Shown: positions 23,146 through 27,999 of the stretch, piece after piece
How positions within the stretch are numbered: position 1 is the first letter of the stretch
Layout: each line of letters starts with the position of its first letter
From: Candidatus Bathyarchaeota archaeon
Lineage (GTDB): Archaea > Thermoproteota > Bathyarchaeia > Bathyarchaeales > Bathycorpusculaceae
Direction: 5' to 3'
Length of the DNA stretch: 64,000 bases
Assembly (NCBI GenBank): GCA_963826715.1
Contig: CAWGYA010000008.1
Span: 1,229,930-1,293,929 of the forward strand
Position numbers and translations under genes: made by a program
Notes under the pieces: model-generated
What the model was told of the DNA's origin: nothing
The model's input: the letters and a program-made list of their open reading frames with translations, nothing else
Database searches by the model: none

Positions 23146-23466
23146 TCAGGGCGAAATCATAGGACGATTCCATAACATGTGCTCAATTGAGCGCAATAAC
23201 TGATACCCAAAGAGTATTGCGACGAAGTAGGTAGGCCACAGAATTACAGGCCAGTTACCTGGGGTATAATTCCAAAGCCCTGTGGAAACGGCAAAGAACT
23301 CCATTAAAGCCAAAGATAGCATTCCACCGAAAGCCAAAAAGACTTGTTCCTTAACTTCGTGTTTTGCGTTCCATTTATGACGGGCAACAATTAAAACTGC
23401 CCATGCGCCAAGGAAAGCGAATAAAAGTATATACCAGTTTGAGTTGAAATCAAATATTACATTCAT
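23146..23466 (-). CDS. small integral membrane protein
   Basis: About 3 hydrophobic segments; ME.FAV.TGLWNY motif; 10-bp gap after the 23477 ORF. Confidence 0.75.
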   Translation of the reverse strand: MNVIFDFNSNWYILLFAFLGAWAVLIVARHKWNAKHEVKEQVFLAFGGMLSLALMEFFAVSTGLWNYTPGNWPVILWPTYFVAILFGYQLLRSIEHMLWNRPMISP

Positions 23467-23476
23467 TGTTTTTTAC

Positions 23477-24157
23477 CTAAATTTTGTTTTTAATTATTTT
23501 TCTATTTTTTCGGGGTTTTCGGTTGATGCGAGGGGGTTTATGGTTTGACCAGCACTTTGAGCAGAACACAGGTTTATCGGCTTTAGGCTGGAAGGGCACT
23601 TCACATTGGGCTTCGCATTCACTACAAATAGCATTATATGTAGAGGGTACACTGAAAGCTTTGAAGATTTGATATTTCTTAAGCCTTGGCCAACCGGTTT
23701 TAGCGTAACGCAGCATTTCTGGGTTATCTTTGAGCCAGCGCATCATATGAAAAAAGTTTTTGCCCCTTTTCTCTTCCCGCTCCGAGAGAGGTTCATAGCC
23801 TAAGTTGCGAATTTCATCTAGATAAGCGATTTCGACTAGGCGTTGGGTTTCGCCTTCGACGTGAATTCGTTTAATACGGTCTTCTCCGTATATTTTCTGC
23901 AGTTCTGCCGCTGCAACGTCAAAGATGCAACCCTGACAAATGTGAATAGATTCGTCCTTTTTTAGATTGAATTTAGCGACAAGCTTCGATACAACACGGG
24001 CAGATTCTTGAAGGTACTCTTTTTCGCGGAAGTTATCTTGGTAAAACCTGACGTCTATTAAATCGTATTTGAATTCGCCTGTTTCTTCATGATAGGCGCC
24101 GACTACTACGCCGAAAAGTAAATCACCACTGCCGGCGTCGTCAACGATAAGGGTCAA
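23477..24157 (-). CDS. RNase H-like fold protein fused to a C-terminal CxxC-x17-CxxC zinc finger
   Basis: IVDDAGSGDLLFGVVVG resembles RNase HII motif I; C-terminal CSEC...VPFQPKADKPVFCSKC followed by a basic tail. Confidence 0.7.
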   Translation of the reverse strand: MTLIVDDAGSGDLLFGVVVGAYHEETGEFKYDLIDVRFYQDNFREKEYLQESARVVSKLVAKFNLKKDESIHICQGCIFDVAAAELQKIYGEDRIKRIHVEGETQRLVEIAYLDEIRNLGYEPLSEREEKRGKNFFHMMRWLKDNPEMLRYAKTGWPRLKKYQIFKAFSVPSTYNAICSECEAQCEVPFQPKADKPVFCSKCWSNHKPPRINRKPRKNRKIIKNKI

Positions 24158-24553
24158 CTTGGGATATATCCCTCTCTTTTCTCAAGCCAATAAGTGGGCG
24201 TTCTATAAAAACCCGCCTTTCATAAAAGATGTAAATTTGGGTCAAAGAACTCAAAAGTTGGAAGTAAATCAATGGCTTTATTTTTATTACCCCTGTAACT
24301 CCAATAAGTTGTAAGTTTTTTGTAACATCTTTTAGTGACCTAAACGCGAGCTGGACCCCCTCAAAATTAAAACCTAACAATTTTGCAAATAAATTGTATG
24401 TATAGAGAACGCTTTTAGGCTTCAGAGCTTTCTATAATGTAAAAACATTGTTCCATTGCAAATCCTTCGCTGTATATATATATCATCTTATTTTACTTCT
24501 GTTAAAACCCTTTTGACCTAGTATGATTAAAGGGTAATAAGAATTCAAAAAAA

Positions 24554-24700
24554 TTAATGCTGGTTTGTTTTAGACTCTTTCTTTCTACTAACATCCACAT
24601 AGCTTTTCTTGCTGCTTTTCTTGCGGTAAGTACAATTGAGTCGAACAGACGATTTACATCTGCGACAATTTTTAACTAAGCCTGCGCGTAACATACACAT
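24554..24700 (-). CDS. possible 48-aa basic Cys-containing protein
   Basis: MCMLRAGLVKNCRRCKSSVRLNCTYRKKSSKK...; no clear SD. Confidence 0.25.
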   Translation of the reverse strand: MCMLRAGLVKNCRRCKSSVRLNCTYRKKSSKKSYVDVSRKKESKTNQH

Positions 24701-25039
24701 ATTTTTTCTCTCTTTGATTTTCGATTAGAAAAGAATCAGTTATTCAATCAGTTGCCATCTAAGAGGATAAGAGAAACTCTTCATGCAACATATACATCTC
24801 TTCTTAATAAGGGTTAAGAAAATAACCTCATTTTGTGAACAGGAAAATTTTTTGTTTTCTTTACCTGAAAGCGGCGCAAATATTATTTTTTGGCTATTTT
24901 TAAGGCAAAAAAAGCTTTTTTTTTGAATAGACTAATATAGGCGGTGAAACCAATTAAAGTAATTAGAATTTTCATAAGAGGAAGAGGAATTAAAGAACTC
25001 GCTTACTTTTTCTCGATTATTCTGATGAAAGGGCTCAAA

Positions 25040-25345
25040 ATGGGTAAAAGAAAAATAACAAATGAAGGTAGCCTAGACAATATGGTTCTTCCCTCATCAA
25101 ATGATGTTCTGGGTATGGCAATAAAAATGTTGGGTGCCGATCGAATAATGGTTAAATGCCAAGATGGCAACGAACGCCTGTGTCGAATTAGAGGTAAACT
25201 AAAACGGCGTGTTTGGATACGGGAAGGAGACATTGTTTTAGTTTCACCCTGGGATTTCCAAAAAGAAAGCAGAGGAGACATCTTCTGGCGGTATAGAAAA
25301 AATCAGTCTGATTGGTTGAGAAACCACAAATATCTTACCATGTAG
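25040..25345 (+). CDS. eif1A: translation initiation factor aIF-1A
   Basis: [43 protein letters not shown]...RGDI.WRY; likely start MGKRK at 25040. Confidence 0.95.
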
Positions 25346-25365
25346 GAGGGGAGGATTACATTATT

Positions 25366-25533
25366 TTGAAATGTACCGAATGCGGAAACACCTTCCAAAA
25401 GGAAGGCAGTTTAACAGATAATCAATTAATATCTTGTCCCGTTTGTGAAGCAAATTACAGAGCAGTAGTTACGGATGGAAAAATTCGTCTGGAAGATTTC
25501 GTCTTTGAAGAAAAAGATCTTGGCGAACTCTAA
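25366..25533 (+). CDS. LysW/ArgW-like zinc-ribbon protein
   Basis: CTECG...ISCPVC...acidic tail [15 protein letters not shown] just after the aIF-1A stop. Confidence 0.65.
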
Positions 25534-26081: not shown

Positions 26082-26224
26082 ACGCTTAACTTTGGATTAC
26101 TTTTTTCTGATTTGTTCGTTATTTTACCTTAAATGTATGCAAACGTTTAAGTCCAGCGCAACATCTATGGAAAAGGTTAATTCACTCGCTATTTTTCATA
26201 GCCCAAAATTAACAGGACTCAAAG

Positions 26225-26446
26225 ATGTCAGAACAAACCCCAACTGAAATAAAATGTAGTGATTGCGGCAAAACCGCCACTGTTCCCTTCAAACCTACCG
26301 CAGGTAAACCAGTTTATTGTCGAGAATGCTTAAGCAAACACAGGGCTACCCGGCGACCGGAAACAGGGAATCGGACACCAATCAACAATCAAAGCCCCGA
26401 TGGGGAAAAACAAGCCTGGTCTAGACGCAGAGAAAATTGGCATTGA
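26225..26446 (+). CDS. CxxC-x17-CxxC zinc-finger protein
   Basis: CSDCGKTATVPFKPTAGKPVYCREC plus an Arg-rich tail. Confidence 0.9.
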   Translation: MSEQTPTEIKCSDCGKTATVPFKPTAGKPVYCRECLSKHRATRRPETGNRTPINNQSPDGEKQAWSRRRENWH

Positions 26447-26457
26447 ATAAATTGCAA

Positions 26458-26736
26458 TTAGCTTATTAATTCAACAACTGTTCCTATCGCTTGTCCCGGA
26501 AGGGGTCTTGCGAATTTTACTCTAACCATGCTATTTCTTCCATGCATTCCAACTATTTTTCCTCTAAATAGGTTTTTGCCGTTTGTCCAGATAACTTTCT
26601 GCCCGACTAGTTTTCCAATTGAACCTGGTTCCACTGTGTTGAATTGAATTAAACATTCTTTTGGTTGCTGGGATTTAGGACCAGTTCGATAGTTTGTTAT
26701 ACGTCCATTAATTTTCGTTGACAAGATATTCACCAT
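26458..26736 (-). CDS. rpl35ae: 50S ribosomal protein L35Ae (eL33)
   Basis: GRITNYRTGPKSQQPKECLI...LVGQKVIW...GKIVGMHG...VRVKF..PLPGQAIG. Confidence 0.9.
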   Translation of the reverse strand: MVNILSTKINGRITNYRTGPKSQQPKECLIQFNTVEPGSIGKLVGQKVIWTNGKNLFRGKIVGMHGRNSMVRVKFARPLPGQAIGTVVELIS

Positions 26737-26852
26737 CTAAGTGCCAGCATGTAAGGGGTGCTGGCATTTAAAGCTGCACTAATTTATTAGGATATTAATG
26801 GTGCCGGAACGTTTTTTAGCTAAATTTTATCTAACTTTAACGCCTATATATT

Positions 26853-27464
26853 GTGATTACCTTGACACTAAACTGCTACCTTCCGGGTAACATTATACTA
26901 ATTGACGCTTACGGCTGGGGAGATCTACTGCTTGGCGTAGTTATCGGAGCAGTTCGCCCACCACAGCGAATGGTAATGGAACGTCGCATCCCCATATCAG
27001 CATTTCAGCTACCAAATTTCAAAACAAAAAAATACTTTGAATACGCCCAAAAAATCGCAGATGAAATTCTAACAGTTATGCAGCCAGAAAAGGAAACTTG
27101 TTTTAAAATCTGCAACGAATACGTGCTGTCCGGCATTATTGTGCATATAGAAAATTTGGGATATAAAGTTCAACGGGTTGAATCGACTGGTGAACTAAAC
27201 CAGTTAGTCGAAGATGCCTATGTTCGTTGGTGTGTAGAAGTTGGCTTACCCAGAGAACTGCTTAAGGATAAGCGGCGGTTCTGGAGTTTTCTAAATTGGG
27301 TCGCTGAAAACCCTCATGTTCGCGAGGGATTAGTTAAGACTGGGTGGGCAAGTTGGGAGCAAAAGTGGCGTTTGGAAATCTACAGAAAACACAATTCAGA
27401 TTATCACCCAAACAAACTTAGTTATTATCCTTTACAAGAGAACACTAAACAGAAAACCCTTTGA
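26853..27464 (+). CDS. RNase H-like fold protein (paralog of 23477-24157)
   Basis: Shares D..G.GDLL.GVV.G, F..K.Y, IC, GE..LVE.AY, F....W...NP and KTGW with the 23477 ORF. Confidence 0.7.
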   Translation: MITLTLNCYLPGNIILIDAYGWGDLLLGVVIGAVRPPQRMVMERRIPISAFQLPNFKTKKYFEYAQKIADEILTVMQPEKETCFKICNEYVLSGIIVHIENLGYKVQRVESTGELNQLVEDAYVRWCVEVGLPRELLKDKRRFWSFLNWVAENPHVREGLVKTGWASWEQKWRLEIYRKHNSDYHPNKLSYYPLQENTKQKTL

Positions 27465-27618
27465 GAAAAAGAATTTTAGTCAAACTGAGAAATCCGCGAG
27501 TTATTTATTAGCGCATTTGAATGTATAATAGTATACGCAGACTTTCAGAAAAAATATCCTTCGCTTTTCTTCTATTGAAAAGTTTTGATTTTGTTATTTG
27601 CTAGTTTGCAGAGAACTA

Positions 27619-27999
27619 TCAAAGTCGTCGACCGTATTTTGCTTTAAGGCAGTCTTCGCAGAGGTTTTGTTTGTATTTTCTTACTCGGCGGGGTTGAAAA
27701 TTTTTTTTGCATTGGCTGCACTTAACCAAGTTAACTTGTTTGGGGTCAATAAGTTTAAGTCGGCGCTTTATCTCCGTTTTTACTTCAGCGTCGTTTTCGT
27801 TTTTTAGTGCTGCGTTTAAGAGGCCTATCGCAAAGTCTACACTGTTTTCTCCAAAAAGTTCTCCGAATACATTCGCGTTTTTTCCTTTTTTCTGCTCCAC
27901 TTTCACTGGTAACATACAAACGAAATTCGCGGGATAACTTCTGGACTTGCTAAAATCCACTACGGCAAAGCGGTAACTTTTTGTTAAATTACTGTCCAT
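27619..27999 (-). CDS. hypothetical protein with C-terminal CxxC...CxxC zinc finger
   Basis: Likely start MDSN at 27999; CSQC...CEDC and a basic tail. Confidence 0.65.
   Translation of the reverse strand: MDSNLTKSYRFAVVDFSKSRSYPANFVCMLPVKVEQKKGKNANVFGELFGENSVDFAIGLLNAALKNENDAEVKTEIKRRLKLIDPKQVNLVKCSQCKKNFQPRRVRKYKQNLCEDCLKAKYGRRL

What the first reader, a model, noticed from the sequence alone, without database searches (positions are those of the whole stretch)
23146..27999. Uncharacterised RNA/translation-linked module: twin RNase H-like paralogs around aIF-1A, eL33 and zinc fingers
Seen: within 5 kb, two clear paralogs (23477-24157 and 26853-27464) bracket aIF-1A, a LysW-like ribbon, an Mrr-fold protein, a stand-alone CxxC-x17-CxxC protein and eL33. 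One paralog is itself fused to the same zinc finger. Known: CxxC-x17-CxxC domains occur with cold-shock and RNA-helicase domains, and aIF-1A and eL33 act on the ribosome. Inference: this may be a ribosome/RNA remodelling or stress (e.g. cold-shock) module that pairs a nuclease fold with RNA-binding fingers and possibly extra copies of translation factors. I do not recognise it as a named system.
Basis: partly seen in the sequence, partly recalled or inferred. Interest (0 to 1): 0.75.

Follow-up and report, generated by a model that had tools for sequence, protein, structure and literature searches.

The report
Divergent RNase HII-like twins, chance neighbours
Two old sister genes of an unnamed archaeal family with the fold of ribonuclease HII but a changed active site happen to lie beside an extra translation-factor gene and the ribosomal protein eL33 gene, and the grouping is a local rearrangement, not a conserved system.

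Summary
All the genes exist where stated. The two paralogs are homologous (25% identity, E 8e-16), and one carries a CxxC-x17-CxxC finger (PF23477).

- **Fold:** the paralogs adopt a type-2 RNase H (RNase HII/HIII) fold (Z 11.1). Their conserved set is D-D-C-Q-E-K, not the DEDD tetrad.
- **Family:** they represent two old clades of an unnamed family, found in 181 of 301 Bathyarchaeia genomes sampled.
- **Copy number:** eL33 is the genome's only copy.
- **Module:** it is not conserved. Of 26 other loci holding a paralog, only one (a congener) has the translation genes. The window's "bracketing" differs from that congener by one inversion.

Smaller links are real:
- a parB-parA-membrane-protein tandem within the genus;
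- the parA–finger fusion;
- aIF-1A-2 with a Zn ribbon and a PD-(D/E)xK-fold protein, within the taxonomic family;
- the small finger protein beside eL33.

My best reading is three unrelated units placed side by side. The interesting part is a new RNase HII-derived family, probably a nucleic-acid enzyme. Its substrate is unknown.

The parts
23146..23466 (-). memb106: small membrane protein of about 3 TM helices, last gene of the parB-parA-memb106 tandem seen in the genus
   Evidence: ORF; no Pfam family above cut-off. It lies directly downstream of parA in L046, L048 and L051 and in L010, where it overlaps parA by 4 nt.
23663..24157 (-). parA, RNase HII-like domain (about aa 1-165), signature D-D-S-C-G-Q-E-W-M-K
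   Evidence: Homologous to parB; matches the family profile at E 7.7e-54; signature; sits in clade A of the tree.
23537..23641 (-). parA C-terminal CxxC-x17-CxxC zinc finger (aa 173-207)
   Evidence: PF23477 at 52.1 bits (cut-off 27) and TIGR04272 at 53.6 bits (cut-off 36). All 120 listed close homologues carry PF23477.
24158..25039 (.). AT-rich gap of about 880 bp with no convincing gene; left breakpoint region of the inversion relative to G141
   Evidence: Sequence; GC 0.31-0.37; no Rfam match; gene orders compared.
25040..25345 (+). aIF-1A-2, second copy of translation initiation factor aIF-1A
   Evidence: PF01176 at 78 bits; NF003084 at 125 bits above its cut-off of 91. Two copies in the genome. 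63% identical to the copy beside RIO1 kinase.
25312..25533 (+). ZnRib73: small Zn-ribbon protein overlapping the end of aIF-1A-2; also has CxxC-x17-CxxC spacing but belongs to another family
   Evidence: TIGR02605 at 31.7 bits (cut-off 31.3). LysW models score below cut-off: 22.8 against 75, and 16.5 against 53.2. It follows aIF-1A-2 in 7 of 7 family-f1 loci and in G290.
25545..26081 (+). Mrr178: PD-(D/E)xK (restriction-endonuclease-like) fold domain plus a three-helix domain with 4 invariant Cys
   Evidence: AF2 model pLDDT 88. AF1548 (1y88_A) Z 11.7 over 143 aligned residues; NucS (2vld_B) Z 10.2 over 96 aligned. Invariant C123, C127, C137 and C145, and no ExK motif in strand 3.
26225..26446 (+). 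CxxC73: stand-alone CxxC-x17-CxxC zinc-finger protein
   Evidence: PF23477 at 58.9 bits; TIGR04272 at 61.1 bits. Beside eL33 in G141 and G171 and in G038, G290, G269 and G135.
26458..26736 (-). Ribosomal protein eL33 (L35Ae), the genome's only copy
   Evidence: PF01247 at 40.3 bits (cut-off 27). NF003326 at 77 bits, below its cut-off of 85. One match in the genome.
26853..27464 (+). parB: RNase HII-like protein, derived signature D-A-W-C-E-N-E-W-R-K
   Evidence: AF2 model pLDDT 91, pTM 0.83. Tk RNase HII (1io2_A) Z 11.1, rmsd 3.2 over 158 aligned residues. Signature.
27619..28131 (-). p170: protein with a C-terminal CxxC-x16-CxxC (likely start at 27999, 126 aa). It lies upstream of aIF-1A-2 in relatives and was displaced here by the inversion.
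   Evidence: ORF; no family match. Adjacent to aIF-1A in L068, L069 and L070.

Best explanation
The 5-kb stretch is a juxtaposition of three separate units, not one system.

**Unit 1: parB and parA.** They belong to two ancient clades of an unnamed archaeal family that derives from type-2 RNase H (RNase HII/HIII).
- They keep the fold, the acidic pair at the end of strand 1 and the G-x-G loop.
- An invariant Cys sits where the strand-4 catalytic Asp is expected.
- The family has its own conserved Q, E, R and a K-T-G-W motif.
- I infer that they are nucleic-acid-processing enzymes, most likely nucleases acting on RNA-containing or structured duplexes.
- They are brought to the substrate by add-on binding modules: the CxxC-x17-CxxC finger in parA, and other ribbons, basic tails or an N-terminal domain in distant members.
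- In this genus the ancestral arrangement is a parB-parA-memb106 tandem.
- parB of this lineage has lost the second acidic residue (D19A) and gained a Glu two residues after the Cys (G89E). This looks like a relocated carboxylate.

**Unit 2: a variable slot beside eL33.** It holds different combinations of a second aIF-1A, a Zn ribbon, a PD-(D/E)xK-fold protein with four Cys, and a small CxxC-x17-CxxC protein.

**Unit 3: eL33.** This is the housekeeping gene.

The "bracketing" by the twins arose from one inversion of the aIF-1A..parB segment relative to the order kept in a congener.

The fold, homology, distribution and gene orders are shown. Catalysis, substrate and any parA-parB partnership are inferred.
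For: **Fold**
- The parB model has pLDDT 91.
- The seven best of 48,161 chains are all type-2/3 RNases H, at Z 9.0-11.1 with 143-172 aligned residues. The next tier (Piwi, integrases) scores Z 7.6 or below.
- Foldseek finds RNase H-like integrase cores at E 3e-5.

**Sequence**
- hhalign pairs the family's I-D-D-a-G-W-G with the V-D-E-A-G-R-G of the genome's own RNase HII.
- A profile search of PDB sequences finds M. jannaschii RNase HII only at E 0.65, over the N-terminus.

**Conservation**
- In 59 diverse members: D18 in 58, D19 in 51, C87 in 58, E120 in 55 (plus 3 with D), K162 in 59.
- In 321 scorable homologues, D19 with G or S at 89 occurs 200 times and non-D19 with E89 117 times. Mixed D19/E89 or A19/G89 states occur 0 times.

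**Distribution and age**
- 181 of 301 Bathyarchaeia genomes have the family, and about half of those (90 by my hand count) have 2 or more matches.
- 38 of 301 genomes across the phylum have it.
- The two window copies fall in separate old clades.
- Homologues are 65-85% identical across hundreds of metagenome proteins. This argues for a constrained function.

**Fusions**
- PF23477 in all 120 listed parA homologues.
- Other Cys/His ribbons, basic tails and N-terminal domains in distant members.
- A separate finger ORF directly upstream of parA in G238 (L062).

**Gene order**
- parB-parA(-memb106) lie in tandem in L010, L048 and L051, and G135. L011 has the parB-parA pair, with the contig ending after parA.
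- Only G141 shares the aIF-1A/eL33 neighbours. The G000 order equals the G141 order after one inversion.
- The slot beside eL33 varies: G038 has finger and ribbon; G290 has finger, aIF-1A and ribbon; G269 has finger and Mrr178; G135 has the finger only.

**Not a replacement for known RNases H**
- Canonical RNase HII is present in G000 and in 58 of 61 Bathyarchaeia genomes.
- An RNase H1-type domain is also present in G000.
Against: - No activity is shown.
- The canonical tetrad is not kept. By topology, Cys replaces the strand-4 Asp, and the loop before the next helix has no conserved acid (against PMC3025331). The proteins could therefore be inactive binders or catalyse something else.
- I mapped residues by secondary-structure position, not by a residue-level superposition. 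Profile-profile alignment beyond the first motif was unreliable (probability 9%).
- parA is translationally coupled to a small membrane protein in the genus. A plain nucleic-acid role does not explain that.
- Some links between the units recur. A Mrr178 homologue lies next to a parA homologue in G058 (L083) and next to finger proteins in L087, L090 and L096. The finger occurs both fused to parA and free beside eL33. A loose functional network among these proteins is therefore not excluded.
- The D19A/G89E pairing is one event in one clade, so it is not independent covariation.
Confidence: 0.6

Rival explanations
1. All the genes form one ribosome/RNA remodelling or stress module, in which nuclease-fold proteins, zinc fingers, an extra aIF-1A and eL33 act together.
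For: - The finger domain occurs three times in this genome, all within this window.
- aIF-1A-2, the Zn ribbon and Mrr178 travel together in 7 of 7 family-f1 loci.
- Within the genus, the five genomes with two aIF-1A matches are the same five with a strong Mrr178 match.
- The small finger protein lies beside eL33 in 6 congeners.
- In G038 the other neighbour of eL33 is a DEAD-box helicase.
- Some parB loci elsewhere lie near housekeeping information-processing genes: NusA-KH, L30e and RpoA in L055, and S10 in L047.
Against: - Only 1 of 26 other parA/parB loci has the translation genes.
- 0 of 4 further eL33 loci in the genus has a paralog within 1.5 kb.
- The neighbours of the paralogs are otherwise transporters, methyltransferases, kinases and metabolic enzymes.
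- The slot beside eL33 holds every partial combination of the genes, so none needs the others.
- eL33 is single-copy.
- The bracketing is explained by one inversion.
Confidence: 0.12
2. parA and parB are catalytically dead descendants of RNase HII. They only bind nucleic acid, or a protein partner, as adaptors or regulators.
For: - The strand-4 Asp is replaced by Cys in 58 of 59 members, and the fourth Asp is not conserved.
- The family has no DSK motif.
- parB also lacks the second strand-1 acid.
- The family is fused again and again to binding modules.
Against: - D18, C87, E120, Q116 and K162 are nearly invariant across members that are only 22-35% identical. This pattern is typical of an active site.
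- Loss of D19 is accompanied in every case by gain of E89 (117 of 117 against 0 mixed). This suggests selection to keep a carboxylate.
Confidence: 0.2
3. The 21-30 kb stretch is a mobile or defence island beside tRNA-Lys and SRP RNA, and the nuclease-fold and finger proteins are defence genes.
For: - Gene content varies among congeners.
- GC is slightly lower: 0.39 against 0.415 for the genome.
- tRNA-Lys lies at 28721-28798.
- Two nuclease folds are present.
- A 15-nt perfect inverted repeat lies at 23151-23165 and 28303-28317.
Against: - No PADLOC or PHROGs match better than E 1e-3 for the core proteins.
- No integrase or transposase was found among the ORFs.
- parA and parB are 65-85% identical across many genomes, and the tree shows two deep, separate Bathyarchaeial clades.
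- eL33 and SRP RNA are core genes.
Confidence: 0.06

Closest known systems
Type-2 RNase H (RNase HII / H2, Pfam PF01351) and RNase HIII
   Same: - Same overall fold, including the C-terminal helical domain: Tk RNase HII Z 11.1 with 158 aligned residues, E. coli RNase HII Z 10.3, RNase HIII Z 10.0-10.2.
- An acidic pair at the end of strand 1 followed by A-G-x-G, against D-E-A-G-R-G.
- A conserved aromatic residue in a G-[WY] motif of the C-terminal domain, at a similar residue number (K-T-G-W165, against Y163 of Tm-RNase H2 in PMC3025331, passages read).
   Different: - No PF01351 match at E 0.1 or better.
- Cys in place of the strand-4 Asp, and no conserved Asp before the following helix.
- No DSK motif.
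- Trp or Ser in place of the Arg of GRG.
- Its own conserved Q116, E120, W149, R157 and K162.
- The genome keeps a canonical RNase HII as well.
CxxC-x17-CxxC small zinc proteins (TIGR04272 / PF23477), studied in Methanosarcina mazei
   Same: The parA C-terminus, CxxC73 and the 47-aa protein at 11365-11508 all score above the family cut-offs. Two M. mazei members were shown to bind zinc by ICP-MS (PMC12704099, passages read).
   Different: The function of the M. mazei proteins is unknown; that paper only suggests a role in transcription. I did not see the fusion to an RNase HII-like domain described in the one paper that my search for the domain name found.
Duplicated aIF-1A of Haloferax volcanii
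   Same: Two aIF-1A genes, about two-thirds identical: 63% here and 67% in H. volcanii. The H. volcanii pair is redundant but not identical in function (PMC3828320, abstract and passages read). At least 2 PF01176 matches occur in 35 of 121 genomes of this order (my count).
   Different: Here the second copy is coupled to a Zn-ribbon gene and, within one taxonomic family, to a PD-(D/E)xK-fold protein. Nothing is known about what it does.
AF1548 / NucS-type PD-(D/E)xK (Mrr-like) nuclease domains
   Same: The Mrr178 N-domain superposes on AF1548 (Z 11.7), the NucS C-domain (Z 10.2), Can2, AspBHI, MspJI and FokI. It also gives weak Mrr_cat and NA-iREase1 sequence hits.
   Different: Strand 3 reads K-V-L-L-R-I, with no acidic-x-Lys motif. 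The best Pfam hit is to an 'inactive' REase family. The domain is followed by a helical domain with four invariant Cys.

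Membership tests
Type-2 RNase H (RNase HII/H2, PF01351) | RNase H-like alpha/beta core plus C-terminal helical domain | tested here: met
   AF2 model pLDDT 91. The top 7 of 48,161 chains are all RNase HII/H2/HIII, at Z 9.0-11.1.
Type-2 RNase H (RNase HII/H2, PF01351) | Match to the family HMM above the gathering score | tested here: not met
   No PF01351 hit for parA or parB at E 0.1 or better. hhalign against the genome's own RNase HII aligns only 18 columns. 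PDB RNase HII appears at E 0.65.
Type-2 RNase H (RNase HII/H2, PF01351) | Four catalytic carboxylates: D and E at the end of strand 1, D at the C-terminus of strand 4, D in the loop before the next helix (PMC3025331) | tested here: not met
   Strand 1 has D-D in most members and parA, and D-A in parB. The end of strand 4 has Cys in 58 of 59. Loop positions 110-113 have no conserved acid. I mapped residues by secondary-structure position, not by superposition.
Type-2 RNase H (RNase HII/H2, PF01351) | GRG motif, DSK motif and junction-sensing Tyr | tested here: inconclusive
   The two glycines are kept (G21 in 51 of 59, G23 in 54 of 59), but the middle residue is W, S or T. No DSK is seen in the consensus. 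K-T-G-W165 may stand for the G-S-G-Y motif, but I had no residue-level superposition.
CxxC-x17-CxxC zinc finger (PF23477 / TIGR04272) | HMM match above cut-off with both CxxC pairs 17 residues apart | tested here: met
   parA 52.1 and 53.6 bits; CxxC73 58.9 and 61.1 bits; cut-offs 27 and 36. Spacing read.
aIF-1A | HMM match above cut-off | tested here: met
   NF003084 at 125.2 bits (cut-off 91); TIGR00523 at 112 bits (cut-off 102.9); PF01176 at 78.3 bits.
Ribosomal protein eL33 (L35Ae) | HMM match above cut-off; single housekeeping copy | tested here: met
   PF01247 at 40.3 bits (cut-off 27). NF003326 at 77 bits is below its cut-off of 85. One match in the genome.
Mrr / PD-(D/E)xK restriction-endonuclease-like | Fold alpha-beta-beta-beta-alpha-beta with D ... 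(D/E)xK catalytic motif | tested here: inconclusive
   The fold is met (Z 11.7 and 10.2). Pfam scores are below cut-off (16 against 27, and 14.4 against 21). D31 is kept, but strand 3 lacks (D/E)xK; the invariant residues there are L43 and R45, with K41 nearly invariant.
LysW/ArgW amino-group carrier | HMM above cut-off and a C-terminal acidic tail ending in Glu | tested here: not met
   NF041070 at 22.8 bits (cut-off 75); TIGR01206 at 16.5 bits (cut-off 53.2). The protein ends in ...LGEL. The rule about the terminal Glu is recalled, not taken from a call.

The most novel reading that the evidence does not exclude
parA and parB define a new enzyme family that evolved from RNase HII. It has a rebuilt active site (Asp-Asp, Cys, Gln, Glu, Lys) and a chemistry or substrate different from any known RNase H. 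The two ancient paralogs work as a pair, one with a relocated carboxylate, and a treble-clef zinc finger aims them at a nucleic acid. This would be a so far unrecognised nucleic-acid processing activity common in Bathyarchaeia and present in some other archaea.
Probability: 0.3. Interest if true: 0.6.

Novelty: new variant of a known kind. Interest (0 to 1): 0.4.

Why it matters
Bathyarchaeia are among the most abundant uncultured archaea in soils and sediments. This family is in about 60% of the genomes sampled (181 of 301), often in two copies, is highly conserved, and has no name in any library I searched.

Showing that it is an RNase HII derivative with an invariant Cys in the catalytic pocket gives a concrete biochemical hypothesis for hundreds of "hypothetical proteins". 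It also gives the widespread CxxC-x17-CxxC finger a first partner domain.

The translation-linked "module" is not a system. Saying so prevents a false annotation.

Tried and rejected
- **Complex prediction** for parA (1-170) with parB was not available. The heterodimer idea is untested.
- **The search for related loci** with alignment A1 failed because no stretch was conserved enough. I repeated it with the single protein and got 6 loci.
- **hhalign** of the family against 12 Bathyarchaeial RNase HII sequences gave nothing in global mode. In local mode with low mact it gave a 171-column alignment at 9% probability. I did not use it for residue mapping.
- **Pfam at E up to 5** on 11 distant members with an N-terminal extension gave no RNase HIII N-domain or any other credible hit. 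The resemblance of that extension to the RNase HIII N-domain is only my impression.
- **ESM Atlas:** the nearest clusters are all "hypothetical protein" (Bathyarchaeota, Methanobacteriota, Promethearchaeota). There was no usable named cluster.
- **PADLOC and PHROGs:** nothing better than E 8.6e-4 for the proteins of the block. The exception is phrog_24538 at 2.5e-7, of unknown function, for the flanking 176-aa protein.
- **Sequencing runs:** no RNA holder is listed. Six DNA runs of soil, sediment or wetland hold all or part of the stretch. Laying four of them gave only short contigs, with no joints. Expression and operon structure therefore remain untested.
- **Repeats:** no long inverted repeats at the inferred inversion breakpoints.
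- **Earlier findings of this scan:** none near this place.
- **Literature:**
  - "CxxC-x17-CxxC" found 3 papers, 1 relevant.
  - "RNase H-like superfamily" + "RNase HII" + "classification" found 6 papers. None names this family, judging from titles and abstract starts only.
  - I did not search arCOG or InterPro, which are not on hand.

Full report
**1. What is there**

The window is part of contig C8 of a 2.64-Mb genome that is 96% complete. Close relatives are named Bathyarchaeia/Bathyarchaeota MAGs.

Between the SRP RNA gene (21316-21631) and tRNA-Lys (28721-28798) lie these genes:

| Gene | Coordinates | Notes |
|---|---|---|
| memb106 | 23146-23466(-) | small membrane protein |
| parA | 23477-24157(-) | 226 aa; residues 173-207 match PF23477/TIGR04272 |
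| gap | about 880 bp | AT-rich |
| aIF-1A | 25040-25345(+) | |
| Zn ribbon | 25312-25533(+) | overlaps aIF-1A |
| Mrr178 | 25545-26081(+) | weak Mrr_cat and NA-iREase1 hits |
| CxxC73 | 26225-26446(+) | PF23477 |
| eL33 | 26458-26736(-) | |
| parB | 26853-27464(+) | no family match |
| p170 | 27619-28131(-) | probably starts at 27999; C-terminal CxxC-x16-CxxC |

parA and parB are homologous: 25% identity, E 8e-16.

**2. The paralogs have a type-2 RNase H fold**

I built an alignment of 59 diverse family members (A1). It gave a confident parB model: pLDDT 91, pTM 0.83.

- Foldseek found RNase H-like integrase cores, best E 3e-5 but TM only 0.3-0.5.
- An all-against-representatives structural search gave a clearer answer. 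The seven best of 48,161 chains are all type-2/3 RNases H:

| Chain | Z | rmsd | Aligned |
|---|---|---|---|
| T. kodakarensis RNase HII | 11.1 | 3.2 | 158 |
| E. coli RNase HII | 10.3 | | |
| RNase HIII (two entries) | 10.2, 10.0 | | |
| human RNase H2A | 9.8 | | |
| S. aureus RNase HII | 9.6 | | |
| Aquifex RNase HIII | 9.0 | | |

- Piwi and integrase domains follow at Z 7.6 or below. The match includes the C-terminal helical domain (model residues 12-185).
- Sequence agrees only weakly. hhalign pairs the family's I-D-D-a-G-W-G with the V-D-E-A-G-R-G of the genome's own RNase HII. A profile search of PDB sequences finds M. jannaschii RNase HII at E 0.65 over the N-terminus.

**3. They are not RNase HII**

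No PF01351 match was found.

The Tm-RNase H2 paper (PMC3025331, passages read) places the catalytic carboxylates as follows:
- D18 and E19 at the end of strand 1;
- D107 at the C-terminus of strand 4;
- D124 in the loop before helix E.

It also describes a GRG motif, a DSK motif and Y163.

In the family (secondary structure, column counts):

| Position | Residue | Count in 59 members |
|---|---|---|
| End of strand 1 | D18 | 58 |
| End of strand 1 | D19 | 51 |
| Following loop | G21, G23 (middle residue W, S or T) | 51, 54 |
| End of strand 4 | C87 | 58 |
| Loop after strand 5 | no conserved acid | |
| Next helix | Q116 | 49 |
| Next helix | E120 | 55, plus 3 with D |
| C-terminal domain | W149 | 58 |
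| C-terminal domain | R157 | 51 |
| C-terminal domain | K162 | 59 |
| C-terminal domain | T163, G164, W165 | 48, 56, 51 |

- I mapped residues by topology, because I had no residue-level superposition. Extended profile alignments were unreliable.
- The genome also has a canonical RNase HII and an RNase H1-type domain.
- RNase HII is in 58 of 61 Bathyarchaeia genomes sampled, including taxonomic families that lack the par family.
- The family is therefore an addition, not a replacement.

**4. An old, constrained, unnamed family with two clades**

- parB has 631 homologues at E 1e-3 or better; the best 120 are 61-82% identical (the query's own entry aside) and all are "hypothetical".
- parA has 1752 homologues at E 1e-10 or better. 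The best 120 all carry PF23477 and are named only after the finger.
- An exhaustive search of 1.84 billion cluster representatives found just 153 clusters.
- 181 of 301 Bathyarchaeia genomes have the family. By my hand count, 90 of those have two or more matches.
- Across the phylum it is in 38 of 301 genomes. It is confined to the window's order plus three other anonymous taxonomic families.
- The ESM Atlas adds hypothetical-protein clusters from Methanobacteriota and Promethearchaeota.
- A tree of 113 sequences puts parA and parB in two separate deep clades. They are therefore not a recent tandem duplication.

**5. A remodelled site in parB**

- The ancestral signature at positions 18/19/22/87/89/116/120/149/157/162 is D-D-W-C-G-Q-E-W-R-K.
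- The window's parB clade has D-A-W-C-E-(N/K)-E-W-R-K.
- Over 321 scorable homologues, D19 with G or S at 89 occurs 200 times and non-D19 with E89 117 times. The mixed states occur 0 times.
- This set is the best 120 hits of each of two searches plus the representatives, so it is not an even sample. The change is one event in one clade.
- I read it as a carboxylate that moved from strand 1 to just after the Cys. That would fit continued selection on an active site.

**6. Add-on modules**

- Besides the PF23477 fusion in clade A, distant members carry other C-terminal Cys/His ribbons, long basic Pro/Arg/Lys tails, an amino-acid-kinase domain (P0149), or an N-terminal domain of about 90 aa.
- In G238 a separate finger ORF sits just upstream of parA (L062).
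- Repeated capture of binding modules points to a nucleic-acid substrate.
- Two M. mazei CxxC-x17-CxxC small proteins bind zinc; their function is unknown (PMC12704099, passages read).

**7. The neighbourhood is not conserved as a whole**

I examined 20 loci of 16 kb from 16 genomes and 6 loci from named MAGs.

- Only L046 (G141, same genus) has aIF-1A, the ribbon, Mrr178, CxxC73 and eL33 near a paralog.
- Its order is p170(+), aIF-1A(+), ribbon(+), Mrr178(+), CxxC73(+), eL33(-), parB(+), three genes(-), parA(+), memb106(+).
- Inverting the aIF-1A..parB segment and reading the other strand gives the window's order exactly. So one inversion made the "bracketing".
- Elsewhere in the genus, parB, parA and memb106 are a same-strand tandem:
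  - L010, with 30-nt and -4-nt spacings;
  - L051/G267 and L048/G177;
  - G135, where parB and parA are adjacent.
- L011 has the parB-parA pair, and its contig ends just after parA.
- In other taxonomic families the two copies are about 44 kb apart (G081, G138, G186).
- Pfam on 85 of the 177 flanking ORFs shows transporters, methyltransferases, histidine kinases and metabolic enzymes. It shows information-processing genes only now and then: NusA-KH, L30e and RpoA in L055, and S10 in L047.

**8. The slot beside eL33**

- eL33 is single-copy.
- aIF-1A has two copies. The other copy sits beside RIO1 kinase and an amino-acid kinase and is 63% identical to the window's copy.
- At least two PF01176 matches occur in 35 of 121 genomes of the order (my count).
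- H. volcanii gives a precedent for redundant but non-identical aIF-1A pairs (PMC3828320, abstract and passages read).
- Mrr178 homologues occur in 74 of 121 genomes of the order.
- In 30 Mrr178 loci, aIF-1A and the ribbon are adjacent in 7. All 7 are from the window's taxonomic family, and one of them is the window itself. None of the other 23 has them.
- Within the genus, the five genomes with two aIF-1A matches are the five with a strong Mrr178 match.
- Yet four further congeners show other partial combinations beside eL33:

| Genome | Genes beside eL33 |
|---|---|
| G038 | finger and ribbon |
| G290 | finger, aIF-1A and ribbon |
| G269 | finger and Mrr178 |
| G135 | finger only |

- No paralog is nearby in any of the four.
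- The finger-eL33 adjacency is thus the only constant, and the rest is a variable slot.

**9. Mrr178**

- The model (pLDDT 88) has an N-domain matching AF1548 (Z 11.7) and NucS (Z 10.2). It also matches Can2, Rpb5, AspBHI, MspJI and FokI.
- The Mrr-fold call is right.
- Strand 3 lacks an acidic-x-Lys motif.
- The C-terminal helical domain has four invariant cysteines.

**10. Other readings**

- There is no support for a defence or mobile island from PADLOC or PHROGs.
- GC is only slightly low: 0.39 against 0.415 for the genome.
Expression and parA-parB binding are therefore open.

**11. Verdict**

- The gene list is correct and the RNase H-like guess was good.
- The "RNA/translation-linked module" is a lineage-specific juxtaposition.
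- What deserves follow-up is the family itself: an RNase HII-derived fold with an invariant Cys in the pocket, two ancient paralogs, and a dedicated zinc finger.

Noticed in passing
window 21316-21631 (+): Archaeal SRP RNA gene (RF01857, 151.9 bits, E 7e-36), just upstream of the region.
   Followed up: no
window 11365-11508 (-): Third CxxC-x17-CxxC small protein of the genome: 47 aa, PF23477 at 72 bits. It lies divergent from a 271-aa protein with an Ssb-like OB fold (11624-12439). All three PF23477 genes of this genome lie within 15 kb of each other.
   Followed up: partly
window 23151-23165 and 28303-28317: A 15-nt perfect inverted repeat flanks the whole memb106..p170 block. I estimate roughly 0.02 such pairs by chance in 7 kb; this is my own estimate, not a tool result. 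It does not coincide with the inferred inversion breakpoints.
   Followed up: no
window 24158-25039: An AT-rich stretch of about 880 bp with no convincing ORF and no Rfam match, between the divergent parA and aIF-1A-2. This is unusually long for this compact genome.
   Followed up: partly
window 25545-26081 (Mrr178), residues 123-145: Four invariant cysteines (C-x3-C-x9-C-x7-C) in the helical C-domain of the PD-(D/E)xK-fold protein, possibly a metal or Fe-S site. The loop between them has low confidence in the model.
   Followed up: partly
window 25312-25533: The Zn ribbon after aIF-1A-2 also has exact CxxC-x17-CxxC spacing and an acidic tail, but it belongs to the FmdB-type ribbon family, not PF23477.
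   Followed up: no
P0149 (metagenome protein); L001:1963-2637 (-): One distant family member is fused to an amino-acid-kinase domain. In this genome an amino-acid-kinase gene lies next to the canonical aIF-1A/RIO1 pair. This is probably coincidence.
   Followed up: no
P0166, P0204, P0216, P0221, P0222, P0257, P0263, P0264 (metagenome proteins): Many distant family members carry a conserved N-terminal domain of 80-120 aa, with a motif like W-N-[AV]-K-[IV]-Y ... K-[LV]-V-T-T-D. Its position recalls the substrate-binding N-domain of RNase HIII (abstract of PMC4132731). No Pfam hit was found.
   Followed up: partly
L083 (G058:C10): In another taxonomic family of the order, a Mrr178 homologue lies divergent from and adjacent to a parA-clade gene (1483-2037(-) and 2286-2825(+)). 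This is the only such case among 30 Mrr178 loci apart from the window and G141.
   Followed up: no
L097 (G038:C18) 1937-3091 (-): In a congener, a DEAD-box helicase (PF00270, E 3e-52) lies on the other side of eL33, where parB lies in the window.
   Followed up: no
window 1-21000 and 34500-41100: Ordinary chromosomal context: tetrapyrrole/cobalamin genes (0.6-10 kb), the trp operon (15-21 kb) and UvrC, UvrA and UvrB (34.5-41.1 kb).
   Followed up: no
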